A stretch of 64,000 nt of DNA from a virus. Shown here one piece after another: positions 6,718 to 61,238 of the stretch; the first letter of the stretch is position 1, and each line of letters starts with the position of its first letter. The notes under the pieces are model-generated. The model was not told where the DNA came from and ran no database searches. It saw nothing but the letters and a program-made list of their open reading frames with translations. The translations under genes and the position numbers were made by a program. The stretch lies in the IMG/VR virus record IMGVR_UViG_3300009079_000013; one strand, given 5' to 3'.

Positions 6718-7911
6718 ATGCAAAACAGTAGCCGGGAATATGGACAACCATTAGATGATTTTGACTGGGATAATCTATCTAATGACAAATATAATAAGAA
6801 AGTAATTATATCTGAACAAGATCGTAAAGAGAATACTAAGATATTATGTAAAGAGCCATATGCACAGGAATTATATGACATGTATAAGAAATATGAAGAA
6901 AATAGTTCTGTTAATCCTTACGTAAGCAAAGATTTAGAAATAGGCCAATTATATAAAGTAAATGCCAAAAGTATATGCTTGAAAACAGGAGTTATTAAAT
7001 CTATTGAGGAGAACTCCGGTGTTGAGATAAGTATTCCATTAAAAGAATATGGAGGTGACTTAGATGAGCTTAAAAGTGGAATAGGCACAGCTTTTAAAGT
7101 CATGCTCTACAAATCAACTGGGAATTGCGAATATATTGCTTCTGAAAAGAAAAGTAGATCTATTAATTATAGAGATGAACTTATTGCACATTTAGAAAAT
7201 AATACATGGTTCGATGTAACTATAAGAAAACTAATTAAGGGTGGATATATTGCTACCTATAAGAACGAAATAGATTGTTTTATACCAGGATCACAAGCAG
7301 GTGCCAATGTTATAAAAGACTTTTCTATTCTTTTAAACAAGACTATTTCAGTCATGGTAGACAACTATGATAAATCTAATAACTTATTCATCGTTTCTTA
7401 TAAAAAATATATTAAACATAGTTTACCTGAAAAAGTATCTGATTTAAGGTTTGGTAAAATGTATACGGGTAAGTTAACTAACAAACCATATCCTTTTGGA
7501 GTATTCGTTGAATTAGAAAATTACTATACTGGTCTTGTTCATAGCTCAGATTTTGAAAATTACGATGAGGTTTCTAGAAACTTAAGAGCAGGAGATGATA
7601 TAGATGTTTACGTTAAAGGTGTTACTTATAAGAAAAATCAGTATAGAATAGTATTGTCTCTTAAAAAAGAATCTATACCGGATGAACTTATAAAATGGGA
7701 TAATTTAAAAGAAGATTTAGAAGGAAATACATTTGATTTTACTGAACATGAAACAAAGAGAAATACTATTGTAATGTATTATAATGGAGAGTCAGTAGAG
7801 TTACAATTAGGTAAACAGTATAGAGATCTTAAAGTATCTGACTTTTCTAAAGTACTGATTCATCATGTAGATTCTTTAAATAAAGTTATGAATTTTTCAT
7901 TAATTAATTAA
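6718..7911 (+). CDS. Ribosomal protein bS1-like multi-S1-domain protein
   Basis: KGGYIATY..IDCFIPGSQ..LLNKTISVMV..IVSYKKY and FGVFVELENYYTGLVHSSD resemble S1 repeats. N-terminal DDFDWD. Confidence 0.8.
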   Translation: MQNSSREYGQPLDDFDWDNLSNDKYNKKVIISEQDRKENTKILCKEPYAQELYDMYKKYEENSSVNPYVSKDLEIGQLYKVNAKSICLKTGVIKSIEENSGVEISIPLKEYGGDLDELKSGIGTAFKVMLYKSTGNCEYIASEKKSRSINYRDELIAHLENNTWFDVTIRKLIKGGYIATYKNEIDCFIPGSQAGANVIKDFSILLNKTISVMVDNYDKSNNLFIVSYKKYIKHSLPEKVSDLRFGKMYTGKLTNKPYPFGVFVELENYYTGLVHSSDFENYDEVSRNLRAGDDIDVYVKGVTYKKNQYRIVLSLKKESIPDELIKWDNLKEDLEGNTFDFTEHETKRNTIVMYYNGESVELQLGKQYRDLKVSDFSKVLIHHVDSLNKVMNFSLIN

Positions 7912-12719: not shown

Positions 12720-12983
12720 ATGAATAATCAATTTGAAGAATTAAGAAAAACAATCTATGACGTAAAAGAAAGTATCTTTTCTGAAATAGAAGGATTAATC
12801 GCAACTTGCGAAGAAGACGCTGATAAATTTTACGACAAAGGAAATAAAAGCGCAGGTACCAGAATCAGAAAAAGTGCCCAATTAATTAGAAAACAGATTC
12901 ATCACCCATCTATTAGAAAACAAATGGTTAAGATAGAAGAAGCTGCCAAAGAATTAAGATCGACTATTTCTGAAACTAAATAA
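12720..12983 (+). CDS. Histone H1-like (Hc1 family) nucleoid protein
   Basis: DADKFYDKGNKSAGTRIRK matches the GNKxAGTRxRK motif of Hc1 and Bacteroidota histone H1-like proteins. Confidence 0.75.
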   Translation: MNNQFEELRKTIYDVKESIFSEIEGLIATCEEDADKFYDKGNKSAGTRIRKSAQLIRKQIHHPSIRKQMVKIEEAAKELRSTISETK

Positions 12984-36139: not shown

Positions 36140-36397
36140 TTATTTAGCTAAACTATCTCGTGTTTTAGTATAGTTTTTCCAAAGCTCATTATAGATATCA
36201 CATGATGCTCCTAAGAAATTTATAATACCTACGTATTTTCTTTTATTCTTACCATCCATCTTAGCTATTTTCTTTCCTAGTTTTTTCGCATCATTAGTGG
36301 TTAGTTCCTCATCTGGATCTTTACCTACTAGTTTTTTAAGTGCGCCTTTCTTCTCAAGAATTGCAAAGTCTTTAAAACTTAAAGCTCTTTTATTCAT
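36140..36397 (-). CDS. Small basic late protein
   Basis: N-terminal LSFKDFAILEK; Lys-rich. Confidence 0.6.
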   Translation of the reverse strand: MNKRALSFKDFAILEKKGALKKLVGKDPDEELTTNDAKKLGKKIAKMDGKNKRKYVGIINFLGASCDIYNELWKNYTKTRDSLAK

Positions 36398-42444: not shown

Positions 42445-42534
42445 AGATAATAACTATTATTTATTATTTATTATTTATTTAAACTATTTTACGGTATAGT
42501 GTATAATATTATAAATTATTAGTATAATATAACT

Positions 42535-57588: not shown

Positions 57589-58440
57589 ATGCAACACACA
57601 AAAATAATAGCAGAAATAGGAATCAATTTTGCATATGGTAACGACCGGTCTAAATTCTTAGACAATGCAAAAAGACTAATCGACGTAGCCGTTGTTGCAG
57701 GTTGTGACTGGGTTAAATTCCAAAAGAGATCACCAGATCACTGTGTTCCAGAAGAACAAAAAACTAAACCTAAGAGAGTTCCATGGAGAACTGAAGAAAC
57801 CACCTATATTCAATACAAACATGACATCGAGTTCAATGAGGAACAGTGGCAAGAATTATATGCATATTGCGAAGATAAACCGATTGGGCTATTCGCATCA
57901 GTATGGGATAAGCCTTCTGTTGATTTTATGATGCGCATGTGTCCACAGATAGCTAAGATACCGTCTGCTTTAATCACTGATATCGATTTATGTTCATATG
58001 CAGATCATAAATTTGATCATATGATAGTAAGTACCGGAATGAGTACTGAAGAAGAAGTGGTTAGATGCATGGACGCAATCCAACCTGATATTGTAATGCA
58101 CACTAATTCCAGTTACCCATCCAATGTAGGTGAACTCAGGTTAGAATACATAACGTGGCTAAAAGACAAATATGGACATAATACTGATATCGGTTATTCT
58201 GGACATGAATATGGTTTAACAACCACAATGGCTGCAGTGACTCTTGGAGCAACGTGGGTTGAAAGACATATTACTTTAGACAGAACTAATTGGGGAAGCG
58301 ATCAAGAGTCCTCAGTTGAACCTAGCGGACTAATGAAGTTGGTTAAAGGAATACGCGATATTGAAAGAGCAATGGGAGGATACGGTCCAAGATCAGTAAT
58401 TGGTTCAGAACTGGCTAAAATGAAATCTCTTAGGAAATAG
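57589..58440 (+). CDS. neuB: Nonulosonic acid synthase (NeuB family, no antifreeze-like domain)
   Basis: IIAEIGIN, VKFQKR, SVWD, KIPS, STGMS, SSYP, GYSGHE and ERHITLDR. Confidence 0.92.
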   Translation: MQHTKIIAEIGINFAYGNDRSKFLDNAKRLIDVAVVAGCDWVKFQKRSPDHCVPEEQKTKPKRVPWRTEETTYIQYKHDIEFNEEQWQELYAYCEDKPIGLFASVWDKPSVDFMMRMCPQIAKIPSALITDIDLCSYADHKFDHMIVSTGMSTEEEVVRCMDAIQPDIVMHTNSSYPSNVGELRLEYITWLKDKYGHNTDIGYSGHEYGLTTTMAAVTLGATWVERHITLDRTNWGSDQESSVEPSGLMKLVKGIRDIERAMGGYGPRSVIGSELAKMKSLRK

Positions 58441-58495: not shown

Positions 58496-59254
58496 TTAAT
58501 ATTTAGCCATTTCTTTCCACTTAGAAAGTACATATTTTTCTATTTCTTTACCAAGTAGTGTAGAAGGTCTAAAAGCCATTTCACCTGCGTAAAGTTTGTC
58601 CTCTTTTTTATTGTAAAAGAAATCTATTCTAAAGAAATCTATCTTTAATTCTTTTGCTATGGCTTTACAAATGTCATATTCTTTATCCCAATTAAAATAA
58701 GTATTGCTTTTGTCTATCATATCTACTCTATGCCATTCTTTTGATCCTTTTCTTAAATCACCAACTATTGGACATCCATATAGAACAAATACTTTAAATT
58801 CATAATCGTATTCGATATATTCTTCTACTATTATTCCTTTTTCAGTTTGTTTCATCATCTCAGGTTCAGTTGCTCTTGATGAAGACTTTAAACATTCCCT
58901 AAGTTTTCTATCTACTTTTTTAAAGTCTTTATCATTAATAAAAACTCCATCGTTTTCTGACATATGAGCAGGTTTAGCAACATACCGTTCCCTTAATGCA
59001 TGTGAAATATCAGAATCTTTAGTAGAATAACAATATAATGTAGGTACGTTTAAACCATGTTTTTCAAAAAATTTTTTAACTTCATACTTATTATAAAGTT
59101 TTTTCATATTTATACATTCTATTTTGTTTTTACGCCTTAGCGTTAACATATAATTATCTTCAATATGAGTTTTATACCTAGTGTGAATGTACGAACAGTC
59201 AAATTCAGGCGACCATTGAGTTAAGCTAGACGGTAAATAATTATAATATTTCAT
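58496..59254 (-). CDS. ATP-grasp ligase (TupA-like)
   Basis: KYEVKKF, VAKPAHMS, IIVEEYI, EFKVF, FRIDFF and YAGEMAFRP. Confidence 0.75.
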   Translation of the reverse strand: MKYYNYLPSSLTQWSPEFDCSYIHTRYKTHIEDNYMLTLRRKNKIECINMKKLYNKYEVKKFFEKHGLNVPTLYCYSTKDSDISHALRERYVAKPAHMSENDGVFINDKDFKKVDRKLRECLKSSSRATEPEMMKQTEKGIIVEEYIEYDYEFKVFVLYGCPIVGDLRKGSKEWHRVDMIDKSNTYFNWDKEYDICKAIAKELKIDFFRIDFFYNKKEDKLYAGEMAFRPSTLLGKEIEKYVLSKWKEMAKY

Positions 59255-59873
59255 AACTTACACTTATCGATTCTCCCTTTTTTATTTTTCTTTTTGATTT
59301 TAAACGTAACTCTTTATCTTTTTTAAAGATATTACAATTAGGCGTAGCAGATTCTATTAAATATCCTCCTACTGGATTAGGTTCGTATAAATCAGATTTA
59401 CTATAATAGCTATGAGAATACCCAAAATCAAAATCTTTTACAATATCTTTAGTTGCATAAAGAGTATAGGCCCCATCTCTTTCCTCTATAGAAACACAAT
59501 CCGGTAAAGGAACGTAATGTTTATTTTTTTTAGTATCTGGTTTTGTAGGGTCATACCAACTATACCTTAATAAAATTTCTTCACCTTTTTCTATATCTTT
59601 AGTTGTTATTAATTCAGTAACCGAACCTATTCCATTTGTAAATTCTTTTTTTACTATAGGTAACCATGCGTTTTTATTGACCGAGTAATTAAAAAAACCA
59701 ACTAAGGGGTTTCTTAAATGTTTAACTGGTCTTTCGTTATAGTCATAGTAATGACAGATGCCTAGATTACTACCCTTTGGAATAAATTTTGTTGCAAAAA
59801 CCCCAAGTCCATGCAAAGGTGATTCTTTTAGTTCTAAACCCTCCGGTATGATATTTCCTTTTTTAATATTCAT
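59241..59873 (-). CDS. Tandem SET-domain protein (lysine methyltransferase-like)
   Basis: SPLHGLGVFATKFIPKG..FFNYS..KDIEKGEEILLRY, then a second, degenerate SET (LYATKDI..PNC..IKKGESISVSY). Confidence 0.8.
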   Translation of the reverse strand: MNIKKGNIIPEGLELKESPLHGLGVFATKFIPKGSNLGICHYYDYNERPVKHLRNPLVGFFNYSVNKNAWLPIVKKEFTNGIGSVTELITTKDIEKGEEILLRYSWYDPTKPDTKKNKHYVPLPDCVSIEERDGAYTLYATKDIVKDFDFGYSHSYYSKSDLYEPNPVGGYLIESATPNCNIFKKDKELRLKSKRKIKKGESISVSYEIL

Positions 59874-60442
59874 TTCTCATCATACACCCAGAACGGTTGA
59901 TTTTCCATCCAACTAACAGGTAACTTGTAACGCTTATATTTAGCTCCACTGAAGGGTTTATATGATATTATAGATATTTCAGGGTGTTCACCTATGATCT
60001 TATTAAAAATATCTTCAAAACTATTTTTATCAAAACAGCAATTACTCATCCATATTAAGTCAGTTGATTTAAATTCAAATTTATATAAATCATCTACATC
60101 TAATGATATATTAGATAAATTATATTTTTTTATTAGAGATTTTCCAAATCTTATTCTACCTCTATGTATATCTATTCCTAAAGTTTCTATATCTGGATAT
60201 TTGTCATTAAAGTAAAAATTCATCCACCCTATGCTTGCGCCAACAACTACGAATCTATCGTACTTTTTACTAACTGAATCTATTAGCGTTATAGCTGTTT
60301 CATATGGAGTAGTCCCATATGTAAAATCTTTATAGGAAAGTGCATTATTTGAAGAAATCATATGTTCAATATGTCTCTTATCCTCGCTTCTCATATTTTT
60401 AATATAATCTTCTAAGTCTTTTAATATATTTAAGTTTTTCAT
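59870..60442 (-). CDS. DOT1-like class I SAM-dependent methyltransferase
   Basis: YGTT, FVVVGASIG, GIDI, IWMSNCCF, IISYKPF and VSWM..PFWVY. ATAAATA at 60448-60454. Confidence 0.65.
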   Translation of the reverse strand: MKNLNILKDLEDYIKNMRSEDKRHIEHMISSNNALSYKDFTYGTTPYETAITLIDSVSKKYDRFVVVGASIGWMNFYFNDKYPDIETLGIDIHRGRIRFGKSLIKKYNLSNISLDVDDLYKFEFKSTDLIWMSNCCFDKNSFEDIFNKIIGEHPEISIISYKPFSGAKYKRYKLPVSWMENQPFWVYDEK

Positions 60443-60533
60443 ATTATTATTTATTCCTTCTTATTTTTTACATAATCAGCGTGTGCACAAAACCTATTGA
60501 ATATACATCAGTACTATATAAAAAATATAATTT

Positions 60534-61238
60534 ATGAAATGGCAAGGCTATGATTGGCAAGTGGGTGAAAGATGGGGATTAATGCACCCTGAAAAAACAG
60601 AATGTTGGTATGATAAAAGCGCAGTTAAAATAATAGATGATGAATTATACTTAAAGACACACTATAACCCTAAAAAAATAGATGGAGTAATTTCACCATT
60701 CGGAGTAGGTTTGATAAACTGTACAACTAAATTTAAACATGGTAGATTTGACATAGATATTAAACTTCCAAAGGGACCTAGTTTATGGCCAGCTTTTTGG
60801 ATGTGGGCCTTTGAGTCATGGCCCCCTGAGATAGATGTTTTCGAAGCATATTCAAATCATAAAGGAAGCTATTTTAATTGGAATATAAATGCTTTACTAG
60901 GAGATTTCTGGAAAGTGCAAACGAATGTTCATCTAGGAAAATCTCCTGATAATTACATGATTGGAGCAAAAGAACATTGGCTGGGCTGGAAATGTCCAAG
61001 CAAAGATTTTCATACATATAGTGTAGAATGGTTCCCTCATGGAATATTTATATATTTCGATAATAAACTAGTTAGAGAAATATTAGATGAAAATATATTG
61101 TCTCAATTAAATGACAAAACAATGAATGTAGTTATAAATAATAGTATTAAGAAAGAACATAATATACCTGAAAATAAAACAGTTGTTTCAACTATGATAT
61201 GTAAAAACTTTAGATATTCTGAATATTATGGAGATTAA
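60534..61238 (+). CDS. Glycoside hydrolase family 16
   Basis: LWPAFWM, EIDVFE and FHTYSVEW. Confidence 0.85.
   Translation: MKWQGYDWQVGERWGLMHPEKTECWYDKSAVKIIDDELYLKTHYNPKKIDGVISPFGVGLINCTTKFKHGRFDIDIKLPKGPSLWPAFWMWAFESWPPEIDVFEAYSNHKGSYFNWNINALLGDFWKVQTNVHLGKSPDNYMIGAKEHWLGWKCPSKDFHTYSVEWFPHGIFIYFDNKLVREILDENILSQLNDKTMNVVINNSIKKEHNIPENKTVVSTMICKNFRYSEYYGD

What the first reader, a model, noticed from the sequence alone, without database searches (positions are those of the whole stretch)
58496..60454. Late-type operon of a DOT1-like methyltransferase, a tandem SET protein and an ATP-grasp ligase: candidate phage protein-modification ('chromatin-writer'-like) system
Seen: three overlapping minus-strand ORFs sit behind an ATAAATA late motif (60448-54), inserted against the + strand glycan cluster. 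ORF 59870 carries YGTT, IWMSNCCF, IISYKPF and VSW..PFWVY in the same order as the DOT1 histone H3K79 methyltransferase motifs as I recall them (YGET, IFVNNFAF, IVSSKPF, VSWT..SYY). Its SAM loop is divergent (VGASIG). ORF 59241 has two SET domains; the first has NYS in place of NHS and the second is degenerate. ORF 58496 is an ATP-grasp amide ligase. Known: SET and DOT1 are the two unrelated lysine-methyltransferase folds of eukaryotic chromatin, and a chlamydial SET protein is reported to methylate Hc1. Inference: the phage pairs both folds with a ligase to modify proteins late in infection. Possible targets are its own Hc1 (12720), the Lys-rich late proteins at 36140 and 36408, virion proteins or host nucleoid proteins. 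I do not know of this combination being described in a phage.
Basis: partly seen in the sequence, partly recalled or inferred. Interest (0 to 1): 0.87.

Follow-up and report, generated by a model that had tools for sequence, protein, structure and literature searches.

The report
Phage DOT1–SET–ATP-grasp modification cassette
An uncultured marine phage carries a tightly packed three-gene cassette (a DOT1-family methyltransferase, a double SET-domain lysine methyltransferase and a TupA-like ATP-grasp ligase) that recurs, sometimes as a fused protein, in dozens of marine and freshwater phage contigs; I found no description of it, and its target is still unknown.

Summary
Three overlapping minus-strand genes encode:
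- a divergent DOT1-family methyltransferase, MT-A (59870-60442). Its closest structure is Legionella LpDot1, Z 17.2.
- a true tandem SET protein (59241-59873). Domain 1 keeps GLG, N-Y-S and the catalytic Tyr. Domain 2 is a pseudo-SET.
- a TupA-like ATP-grasp amidoligase (58496-59254).

The main new result is that MT-A and the ATP-grasp form a near-obligate pair. Of 37 informative ATP-grasp clusters from marine and freshwater phage contigs, 27 have MT-A as a neighbour and 8 have it fused into one protein. SET sits between them in 21 of 35. Optional extras in relatives are a canonical DOT1 paralogue, a flavin-amine-oxidase-like protein and a small acidic protein. NeuB lies nearby in only 3 of 35, so the cassette is not tied to the glycan island.

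Most likely function (about 0.5): a "ligate-and-methylate" system acting on lysine-type amines and carboxylates of proteins. The main rival (about 0.25) is amidation plus N-methylation of a surface glycan or cell-wall polymer. That is the only chemistry shown so far for a TupA-like enzyme.

The "late promoter" and "chromatin-writer / Hc1 target" readings remain untested. No cultured phage in the collection carries MT-A or this ATP-grasp, and I found no paper describing the cassette.

The parts
59870..60442 (-). MT-A: divergent DOT1-family SAM-dependent N-methyltransferase, 190 aa
   Evidence: AF2 model has pLDDT 84.6. Best structural match is LpDot1 (9ne1): Z 17.2, rmsd 2.7, 177 aa aligned, 2.5 Z units above the next chain in an exhaustive search of 48,161 chains. 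The family profile retrieves proteins of which 76 of 91 match Pfam DOT1. A profile of those proteins hits 9ne1 at E 7e-41 and DOT1L at 1e-19. The protein's own Pfam DOT1 score is below the cut-off (16.1 against 23 bits).
59241..59873 (-). Tandem SET-domain protein, 210 aa
   Evidence: Pfam SET 51.4 bits against a cut-off of 22.4, in two stretches. The family has 35 clusters. AF2 model has pLDDT 82.
59538..59852 (-). SET domain 1 (aa 8-112), probably catalytic: HGLG, F-N-Y-S-x3-N, GEEILLRY (Y104)
   Evidence: VIA Z 11-11.7 to MLL1, SET8 and vSET over residues 3-120. G22, G24, N62, N68, E99 and Y104 are invariant.
59244..59513 (-). SET domain 2 (aa 121-210), probably a pseudo-SET: no GxG, I-E-S in place of N-H-S, keeps P-N and Y207
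   Evidence: VIA Z 10.8, rmsd 1.8, to SETD8 (5v2n) over residues 121-210. The internal repeat is shown by hhalign probability 97%, E 5e-11.
58496..59254 (-). TupA-like / sugar-transfer-type ATP-grasp amidoligase, 252 aa
   Evidence: Family scan: ATPgrasp_ST in 16 of 24 members and ATPgrasp_TupA in 7 of 24. Fused relatives pass the TupA cut-off. In the Atlas feature search, 28 of 30 hits are TupA-like clusters. K94, E144, E145, K154, R209, D211 and E225 are invariant. The window protein's own Pfam scores are below the cut-offs.
60443..60533 (.). Divergent intergenic region between MT-A and GH16; holds AAGGA and ATAAATA (60448-60454, minus strand) 5 nt before the ATG
   Evidence: Sequence read. 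The ATAAATA position is invariant in the four closest loci. No sigma-70 promoter or terminator signal above shuffled sequence.
12720..12983 (+). Hc1-family histone-H1-like protein: a candidate substrate only, not shown to be linked
   Evidence: Pfam Hc1 E 4.8e-18, 65 bits against a cut-off of 23.5.
60534..61238 (+). GH16 neighbour (context, not part of the operon)
   Evidence: Pfam Glyco_hydro_16 E 2.4e-18. It neighbours the cassette in 8 of 35 clusters.
57589..58440 (+). NeuB neighbour, convergent (context, end of the glycan island)
   Evidence: Pfam NeuB E 6.9e-61. NeuB is near the cassette in only 3 of 35 clusters.

Best explanation
The three genes form one translationally coupled operon encoding a 'ligate-and-methylate' cassette directed at primary amines and carboxylates of proteins.

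Shown:
- The first gene product (MT-A) is a divergent member of the DOT1 family of lysine N-methyltransferases.
- The second is a tandem SET protein. Domain 1 keeps the SAM and catalytic motifs. Domain 2 is a degenerate copy.
- The third is a TupA-like ATP-grasp amidoligase with its nucleotide- and metal-binding residues intact.
- MT-A and the ATP-grasp are inherited as a pair and occur as single fused polypeptides.
- SET is inserted between them in about 60% of lineages.

Inferred:
- The ATP-grasp activates a carboxylate as an acyl-phosphate and joins it to an amine.
- MT-A, reinforced or extended by SET domain 1, N-methylates a lysine-type amine on the same substrate, either before or after ligation.
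- SET domain 2 acts as a built-in partner, mimicking the dimer of the chlorovirus vSET.
- The substrate is most probably one or more proteins of the phage or host. Candidates are the phage Hc1 homologue, virion proteins and envelope or lysis proteins. Every characterised SET and DOT1 enzyme I know of acts on protein side chains.
For: Enzyme identities:
- MT-A against LpDot1 gives Z 17.2, first of 48,161 chains.
- 76 of 91 profile-retrieved relatives are Pfam DOT1, and their profile hits LpDot1 at E 7e-41.
- The MT-A profile directly hits Rickettsia protein-lysine MTase PKMT2 at E 1.3e-7.
- SET is above the Pfam cut-off, and both halves fold as SET.
- The ATP-grasp is TupA-like.

Coupling:
- Start and stop codons overlap.
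- MT-A lies beside the ATP-grasp in 27 of 37 informative clusters and is fused to it in 8.
- Gene order is always [F3][MT-B] MT-A [AOX-like][SET] ATP-grasp.
- Divergence of MT-A and the ATP-grasp is correlated: Mantel r 0.79, 0 of 2000 permutations reached it. This shows co-inheritance only.

Independence from glycan genes:
- NeuB is near the cassette in 3 of 35 clusters.
- Two 146-160 kb records carry the full cassette but have no NeuB or GT2 match.

Precedents:
- LpDot1 methylates a non-histone protein lysine.
- cpnSET methylates Hc1, Go1-SET methylates MC1-alpha, and the DOT1-like aKMT methylates Cren7 and Sul7d.
- The window encodes Hc1.
Against: - No substrate is identified.
- The only biochemically characterised TupA-like ATP-grasp (Cj1438C) amidates a capsule glucuronate, not a protein.
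- In the window and its closest relatives the cassette sits inside a glycosylation island.
- MT-A motif I is V-x-G-x-S-x-G instead of D-x-G-x-G-x-G, so SAM binding is unproven.
- SET has Tyr in place of the His of N-H-S.
- After the DOT1 entries, the next profile hits include phosphoethanolamine N-methyltransferases, which act on small molecules.
- Complete phage genomes with single SET genes lack Hc1.
Confidence: 0.5

Rival explanations
1. Decoration of a glycan or cell-wall polymer. The TupA-like ATP-grasp amidates a sugar-acid carboxylate (a uronic or nonulosonic acid made by the adjacent island, or a peptidoglycan stem-peptide carboxylate) with an amine or amino acid such as lysine. The DOT1-like and SET enzymes then N-methylate the free amine of the appended group.
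For: - The TupA/ATPgrasp_ST clade is defined by polysaccharide loci, and Cj1438C amidates GlcA with ethanolamine-P or serinol-P.
- The window, L001/L033 and L015/L030 place the cassette between NeuB and GH16 inside a glycosylation island.
- In other architectures the neighbours are envelope or lysis genes: GH16, PrsW-like, holin, an Amidase_2 lysin and a GH108 lysin.
- MT-A relatives score close to phosphoethanolamine N-methyltransferases.
Against: - NeuB is near the cassette in only 3 of 35 clusters.
- No NeuB or GT2 match in two 146-160 kb records that carry the full cassette.
- I know of no SET or DOT1 enzyme that acts on a non-protein substrate.
- The fused MT-A::ATP-grasp loci have nucleotide-metabolism neighbours and no glycan genes.
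Confidence: 0.25
2. Small-molecule or peptide product. The ATP-grasp joins an amino acid or polyamine to another small carboxylate, or cross-links a dedicated small precursor such as the F3 acidic protein in a RiPP-like way. The methyltransferases tailor the product, by analogy with carnosine-to-anserine or glutathionylspermidine chemistry.
For: - A small acidic 77-112 aa protein (F3) accompanies the cassette in 12 of 35 clusters.
- Weak profile similarity of MT-A to the plantazolicin N-methyltransferase BamL.
- Weak similarity of the ATP-grasp to a 'grasp-with-spasm' peptide maturase.
- An amine-oxidase-like accessory gene occurs in 8 of 35 clusters.
Against: - The window and its 88.9 kb record have no F3.
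- The BamL and maturase similarities are far below family cut-offs.
- SET enzymes are not known in small-molecule pathways.
- No transporter or immunity gene is linked.
Confidence: 0.12
3. Nucleic-acid modification. The pair builds or methylates an amino-acid or amine adduct on hypermodified phage DNA, or modifies RNA.
For: - An earlier first-stage note suggests a dCMP-hydroxymethylase-type enzyme in this genome. I did not test this.
- Several RNA and DNA amino-methyltransferases appear at Z 14-15 among structural matches.
- The fused form sits among nucleotide-metabolism genes: PurA-like, NT5C and a formyltransferase.
Against: - The best structural and profile matches are protein-lysine enzymes, by a clear margin.
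- SET is unknown on nucleic acids.
- To my knowledge, the known phage DNA hypermodification pathways do not use TupA-like ATP-grasps.
Confidence: 0.05
4. Three unrelated genes that happen to be adjacent, with no common pathway.
For: None beyond the lack of a known substrate.
Against: - Overlapping codons.
- Fixed gene order across architectures that share no other neighbours.
- 35 of 37 informative clusters keep MT-A with the ATP-grasp, and 8 of them are fused.
Confidence: 0.02

Closest known systems
LpDot1 of Legionella pneumophila (PDB 9NE1), a compact bacterial DOT1-like lysine methyltransferase
   Same: Same fold over nearly the whole length (Z 17.2, 177 of 190 residues). Both are about 200 aa and lack the nucleosome-binding additions of DOT1L. 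Shared elements are Y-G in the D1 loop, an acidic residue after strand 2, the Asn of the N-x-x-F motif and the S-W near the C terminus. LpDot1 methylates a non-histone protein.
   Different: Only 15% identity. Motif I is V-x-G-x-S-x-G-W instead of D-L-G-S-G-x-G. The Glu of Y-G-E is Thr. The gene is phage-borne and locked to an ATP-grasp partner. Activity is untested.
vSET of Paramecium bursaria chlorella virus 1 and other minimal SET proteins (PDB 3KMA, 4RZ0)
   Same: Each half is a minimal SET of about 100 aa without pre- or post-SET zinc modules. These are among the best Foldseek matches. Both are virus-encoded.
   Different: Here two SET domains sit in one chain and the second has lost GxG and N-H. 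This could replace the vSET homodimer (that vSET is a dimer is from my own knowledge). The His of N-H-S is Tyr. The host is a bacterium without histones.
Prokaryotic chromatin-protein methyltransferases: chlamydial cpnSET acting on Hc1/Hc2, Methanosarcina Go1-SET acting on MC1-alpha, Sulfolobus aKMT (DOT1-like) acting on Cren7/Sul7d
   Same: SET or DOT1-like enzymes acting on small basic DNA-binding proteins. The phage encodes an Hc1-family protein. aKMT is among the top fold and profile matches of MT-A.
   Different: No linkage between the cassette and Hc1 is shown. None of those systems has an ATP-grasp partner, or both methyltransferase folds in one operon.
TupA-like ATP-grasp amidoligases (Cj1438 C-terminal domain of Campylobacter jejuni; WemR; CfmP of Klebsiella)
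   Same: Same ATP-grasp clade by Pfam and Atlas features. The expected chemistry is ATP-dependent amide formation on a carboxylate.
   Different: The known members sit in polysaccharide loci or the crr locus and are not paired with methyltransferases. The phage enzyme is a minimal 252 aa protein whose constant partner is a DOT1-like enzyme. The profile search against PDB sequences found no solved relative.
Rickettsia PKMT1/PKMT2 outer-membrane-protein lysine methyltransferases
   Same: Best direct sequence-profile match of MT-A among solved structures (E 1.3e-7). Both are class I protein-lysine N-methyltransferases.
   Different: The match covers only the Rossmann core. PKMTs are proteins of about 550 aa with extra domains.
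R2K ATP-grasp peptide ligases of jumbo phages
   Same: Phage-borne ATP-grasp enzymes predicted to modify proteins.
   Different: A different ATP-grasp clade (only a weak R2K_2 hit, E 0.026). Their usual partner is not a methyltransferase.

Membership tests
DOT1 (Pfam PF08123) | Score above Pfam's gathering cut-off | tested here: not met
   16.1 bits against a cut-off of 23, E 0.0086. Other MT-A members score 15-19 bits. The paralogue MT-B in relatives passes at 44.9 and 56.5 bits.
DOT1 (Pfam PF08123) | Significant profile homology to bona fide DOT1 proteins | tested here: met
   The MT-A profile finds 122 proteins at E<=1e-10. 76 of 91 sampled match Pfam DOT1, best 8.5e-23. Their profile hits LpDot1 at 7e-41, DOT1L at 1e-19 and yeast Dot1 at 3e-19.
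DOT1 (Pfam PF08123) | DOT1 fold as the closest structure | tested here: met
   9ne1: Z 17.2, rmsd 2.7, 177 aa, rank 1 of 48,161 chains with the next at 14.7. DOT1L, TbDOT1A and yeast Dot1 score Z 12-15, mixed with other class I enzymes.
DOT1 (Pfam PF08123) | Signature motifs: Y-G-E loop, D-x-G-x-G-x-G, acidic residue after strand 2, N-N-F, S-W | tested here: inconclusive
   Y-G is kept but Glu is Thr. Motif I is V-x-G-x-S-x-G. The acidic D91/E, N134 and S177-W178 are kept and conserved.
DOT1 (Pfam PF08123) | SAM-dependent methylation of a protein lysine | not testable with these tools
   Needs an enzyme assay.
SET domain (Pfam PF00856) | Score above the gathering cut-off and SET fold | tested here: met
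   51.4 bits against 22.4. Z 11.7 for residues 3-120 and Z 10.8 for residues 121-210.
SET domain (Pfam PF00856) | Catalytic motifs GxG, N-H-S-x-x-P-N and E-L-x-x-x-Y, in domain 1 | tested here: inconclusive
   H-G-L-G is present. N62 and N68 are invariant, but the His is Tyr (Y63, at least 90% conserved). G-E-E-I-L-L-R-Y has an invariant Y104.
SET domain (Pfam PF00856) | The same catalytic motifs in domain 2 | tested here: not met
   The aligned positions read A-Y for G-L-G and I-E-S for N-Y-S. Only P-N (N179) and Y207 remain.
TupA-like / sugar-transfer ATP-grasp (PF14305 / PF14397) | Score above the gathering cut-off | tested here: not met
   Window protein: ATPgrasp_ST 20.9 bits against 31.4. 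Fused relatives pass TupA at 25.9 and 27.4 against 25. Family tally: 16 of 24 ST and 7 of 24 TupA at E<=0.01.
TupA-like / sugar-transfer ATP-grasp (PF14305 / PF14397) | Conserved ATP- and Mg-binding residues of the ATP-grasp fold | tested here: met
   K94, E144, E145, K154, R209, D211 and E225 are invariant in 24 sequences. The roles assigned to these residues are inference from general knowledge of the fold.
TupA-like / sugar-transfer ATP-grasp (PF14305 / PF14397) | Location in a surface-polysaccharide locus | tested here: inconclusive
   True for the window, L001/L033 and L015/L030. Not true for most lineages: NeuB is nearby in 3 of 35, and two large records have no NeuB or GT2.
T4-type late promoter | TATAAATA about 6 nt upstream of the transcript start, followed by a leader with a ribosome-binding site | tested here: inconclusive
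   The window has AATAAATA ending 5 nt before the ATG, downstream of AAGGA. The 7-mer is not enriched. The position is invariant in four relatives, and two of them read TATAAATA. It is absent from the other architectures.

The most novel reading that the evidence does not exclude
The cassette is a phage-encoded 'chromatin-like' post-translational modification system. DOT1-type and SET-type lysine writers, an amidoligase and (in relatives) a flavin-amine-oxidase-like protein that could act as an LSD1-style eraser would together modify the phage's Hc1 histone-like protein or host nucleoid proteins, controlling DNA compaction or expression during infection. That would place both eukaryotic histone-methyltransferase folds in one bacterial-virus operon.
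Probability: 0.12. Interest if true: 0.9.

Novelty: new variant of a known kind. Interest (0 to 1): 0.7.

Why it matters
DOT1 and SET are the two lysine-methyltransferase folds of eukaryotic chromatin. Here both occur in one phage operon, and the DOT1-type enzyme is bound to an ATP-grasp ligase through both neighbourhood and gene fusion.

The cassette is widespread in uncultured marine and freshwater phages. One contig comes from a Prochlorococcus single-cell genome. MT-A and the ATP-grasp are absent from the 50,697 phage records searched.

If the cassette modifies proteins, it would add lysine methylation plus amide ligation to the short list of phage-imposed protein modifications, such as ADP-ribosylation. 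It would also supply compact, expressible enzymes of about 190-250 aa for study.

If it decorates glycans instead, it would be the first case I know of where SET- or DOT1-type enzymes act on a non-protein amine.

Either outcome is directly testable, because the core is only two or three small genes.

Tried and rejected
- Complex prediction of the ATP-grasp with MT-A gave no verdict (score 0.00). I do not use it either way.
- tblastn of MT-A, the ATP-grasp and MT-B against 50,697 phage records found nothing. blastn of the region found only a GH16 fragment.
- The ATP-grasp profile against PDB sequences gave only GshAB at E 0.49.
- PHROGs gave nothing for MT-A or the ATP-grasp, and an unnamed family for SET.
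- NCBIfam gave nothing near its cut-offs.
- PADLOC gave only a generic methyltransferase-core hit to mad2 at about 1e-5. I do not take this as a defence system.
- The sigma-70 promoter and terminator scan was not above shuffled sequence.
- I looked for F3, MT-B and the amine-oxidase-like gene in the window and for F3 also in the whole record. All were absent. The record is only about 35% of the genome.
- Hc1 co-occurrence: present in the own record and in two of five related records. Absent from the complete genomes of phages Kolga and P-SSM7, which have single SET genes. This is too few to support or reject Hc1 as the target.
- MT-A against MT-B by hhalign gives only 49% probability, E 1.8e-4. 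They are distant relatives at best.
- The Iyer 2009 amidoligase paper could not be read.
Full report
**The observation.** The three minus-strand ORFs exist as described: 59870-60442 (190 aa), 59241-59873 (210 aa) and 58496-59254 (252 aa). They overlap by 4 and 14 nt, which suggests translational coupling. They lie between a NeuB gene on the plus strand and a GH16 gene on the plus strand. G+C content is unremarkable. The window belongs to an 88.9 kb IMG/VR virus record judged about 35% complete. Its tail sheath resembles those of very large uncultured phages, a Flavobacterium phage and Lak phages at about 31-34% identity.

**The first gene (MT-A).**
- Pfam sees only a generic class I methyltransferase, with a sub-threshold DOT1 hit (16 bits against a cut-off of 23).
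- The immediate family is small, 11 clusters. Its alignment shows invariant Y42-G43, G68-x-S70-x-G72-W73, N134, C136 and S177-W178.
- A profile of this family, run against 1.84 billion representative proteins, finds 868 relatives, 122 of them at E<=1e-10.
- Of 91 sampled relatives, 76 match Pfam DOT1, more than any other family. Their consensus carries T-Y-G-E, D-L-G-S-G-x-G, G-I-E, C-F and S-W.
- A profile of these relatives hits the Legionella DOT1-like enzyme (9ne1) at E 7e-41 over its full length. It hits human DOT1L and yeast Dot1 at about 1e-19. Phosphoethanolamine N-methyltransferases and the archaeal lysine methyltransferase aKMT follow.
- The AlphaFold model (pLDDT 84.6) is closest to 9ne1. 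It ranks top in Foldseek, gives Z 17.2 on re-alignment, and ranks first of 48,161 chains in a search that does not depend on Foldseek, 2.5 Z units above the next chain.
- 9ne1 is probably LpDot1, which methylates the non-histone protein SFPQ and not histones.
- I therefore file MT-A as a divergent DOT1-family N-methyltransferase. The open points are its atypical cofactor loop and the loss of the Glu in Y-G-E.

**The second gene (SET).**
- Pfam SET is well above the cut-off, in two stretches.
- The family has 35 clusters.
- The two halves of the protein are homologous (hhalign 97%, E 5e-11).
- In the model (pLDDT 82) residues 3-120 and 121-210 each superpose on SET domains, with Z 11.7 and 10.8. 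Minimal SET proteins such as vSET are among the best Foldseek matches.
- Domain 1 keeps G-L-G, N-x-S-x3-N (with Tyr for His) and the catalytic Tyr in G-E-E-I-L-L-R-Y. Domain 2 has lost G-x-G and N-H.
- Single-domain relatives of about 100 aa occur, annotated as hypothetical, in Pelagibacter phage Kolga and in cyanophages P-SSM7 and P-RSM6. There they stand alone.

**The third gene (ATP-grasp).**
- The window protein scores below Pfam cut-offs (ATPgrasp_ST E 2e-4).
- Across 24 family members, 16 match ATPgrasp_ST and 7 match ATPgrasp_TupA.
- Fused relatives pass the TupA cut-off.
- The Atlas feature search returns TupA-like clusters in 28 of 30 hits, one of them mostly viral.
- The Lys, Glu and Asp residues expected for nucleotide and metal binding are invariant.
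- The one biochemically characterised TupA-like enzyme, the C-terminal domain of Cj1438, amidates the C6 carboxylate of capsule glucuronate with ethanolamine-P or serinol-P.
- Another member, CfmP, is genetically tied to a modification of the pilin FimA. Its chemistry is unclear.

**Co-conservation.**
- I fetched loci through encoded-protein look-ups, IMG/VR, reference genomes and metagenomes. I scanned them with family HMMs.
- 82 loci carry the ATP-grasp. They form 52 clusters at 95% identity, of which 37 have enough flanking sequence to judge.
- Of those 37, MT-A is a neighbouring gene in 27 and is fused to the ATP-grasp in 8. It is absent in 2, which form one separate clade.
- The fusions (457-472 aa for P0072, P0075 and P0081) have MT-A at the N terminus and an ATP-grasp 44-46% identical to the window's.
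- SET is present in 21 of 35 clusters, always directly upstream of the ATP-grasp.
- Gene order is constant: [small acidic protein F3] [MT-B, a canonical Pfam DOT1 protein] MT-A [a 322 aa protein] [SET] ATP-grasp.
- The 322 aa protein resembles flavin amine oxidases by language-model features (score 0.96). Its dinucleotide-binding glycines are invariantly replaced by S-S-N-I-S-F.
- The window has the minimal trio. Its closest relative (L030/L015, ATP-grasp 88% identical) has the same GH16 and NeuB neighbours plus the 322 aa gene.
- Divergence of MT-A and the ATP-grasp is correlated (Mantel r 0.79). This shows joint inheritance, not more.

**Context.**
- NeuB lies near the cassette in only 3 of 35 clusters.
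- Two records of 146-160 kb with the full cassette have no NeuB or GT2 match. A third has GT2 genes about 40-50 kb away.
- In four otherwise unrelated architectures the neighbours include envelope or lysis genes: GH16, a PrsW-like protease, a holin, an Amidase_2 lysin and a GH108 lysin.
- The only reference-genome hit is a phage-like contig in a Prochlorococcus single-cell assembly. This is a host lead, not proof.

**The 'late' motif.**
- ATAAATA is at 60448-60454 on the minus strand, 5 nt before the ATG and downstream of an AAGGA element.
- Neither this 7-mer nor TATAAATA is enriched in the window.
- The element is nevertheless invariant in position in the four closest loci, and two of them read TATAAATA although the rest of the spacer has diverged.
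- With T4-like spacing the transcript would begin on the start codon.
- Other architectures lack the motif.
- Timing is therefore undecided.

**Mechanism.**
- What is shown: the identity of the three enzymes, the intact catalytic residues of the ATP-grasp and SET domain 1, and the obligate pairing and fusion of MT-A with the ATP-grasp.
- What is inferred: the ATP-grasp makes an amide bond, and the methyltransferases N-methylate a lysine-type amine of the same substrate.
- Two of the three families are known only on proteins. Prokaryotic SET and DOT1-like enzymes methylate nucleoid proteins, including Hc1, and the phage encodes Hc1. I therefore favour a protein target at about 0.5.
- The glycan or cell-wall rival, at about 0.25, rests on the ATP-grasp clade and on the local context.
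- Hc1 as the specific target is weakly placed. It is found in the own record and in two of five related records. It is absent from complete genomes of phages with single SET genes.

**Novelty.**
- Full-text searches found no paper combining DOT1, SET, ATP-grasp and phage.
- No paper links DOT1 to phages.
- The three papers that mention both Dot1 and ATP-grasp do not describe this cassette.
- A broad survey of jumbo-phage genes mentions neither SET, Hc1 nor TupA.
- The first-stage scan noted the same stretch in overlapping windows. No follow-up was on record.

Noticed in passing
window 12720-12983 (+): An 87 aa ORF is a clear Hc1-family histone-H1-like protein (Pfam E 4.8e-18). Homologues occur in two related phage records, G001 and G002.
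   Followed up: partly
L015:4424-5392 (+); also L009, L013, L030, L038 and others: A 322 aa gene sits between MT-A and SET in 8 of 35 cassette clusters, including the window's closest relative. By Atlas features it looks like a flavin amine oxidase. However, its GxGxxG is invariantly S-S-N-I-S-F, so FAD binding is doubtful. It is absent from the window.
   Followed up: partly
L007:3835-4395 (+); L029:9041-9565 (-); L011:3300-3881 (+): A second methyltransferase (MT-B) with canonical Y-G-E and D-L-G-x-G-x-G motifs passes the Pfam DOT1 cut-off (E 1.3e-11 and 3.7e-15). It accompanies the cassette in 9 of 35 clusters. No cultured phage in the collection has it.
   Followed up: partly
L011:2949-3287 (+); L009:7306-7548 (+): A small acidic protein (F3, 77-112 aa, conserved A-H-x-x-x-T-x-P-x-K) is linked to the cassette in 12 of 35 clusters. 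It could be a dedicated substrate or partner. It was not found in the window or in its record.
   Followed up: partly
L029 (Prochlorococcus sp. AG-409-L21 single-cell assembly, contig QCKH01000018.1): This is the only hit among 185,579 reference genomes. It is a 13 kb phage-like contig carrying the full cassette in a Prochlorococcus single-cell genome, which is a possible host clue for this phage group.
   Followed up: no
L009, L011, L031, L036, L040-L043, L081-L084: In four unrelated architectures the cassette sits beside envelope or lysis genes: GH16, a PrsW-like protease, a holin, an Amidase_2 endolysin and a GH108 lysin.
   Followed up: partly
window 2526, 7953, 11336, 21174(-), 35297(-), 48952(-): Several ATAAATA copies lie about 19-29 nt upstream of start codons of long ORFs. 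That is the spacing expected for T4-type late promoters, unlike the 5 nt spacing at MT-A. Three copies also stand in tandem at 42458-42478 on the minus strand.
   Followed up: no
L021 and L022 (also L067, L069, L073, L074): A separate clade of the ATP-grasp (about 44% identical, shorter ORFs of 161-185 aa) lacks MT-A. It follows two to four paralogous genes of about 180-265 aa of unknown function.
   Followed up: no
L050:4866-5687 and 6986-7750: One metagenomic locus carries two copies of the ATP-grasp downstream of MT-B, MT-A, the amine-oxidase-like gene and SET.
   Followed up: no
L002, L005, L071 upstream of MT-A: In the convergent MT-A / ATP-grasp architecture a TATAAT element lies 4 nt before the ATG. 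Together with the window-type motif, this hints that cassette transcripts may be leaderless.
   Followed up: no
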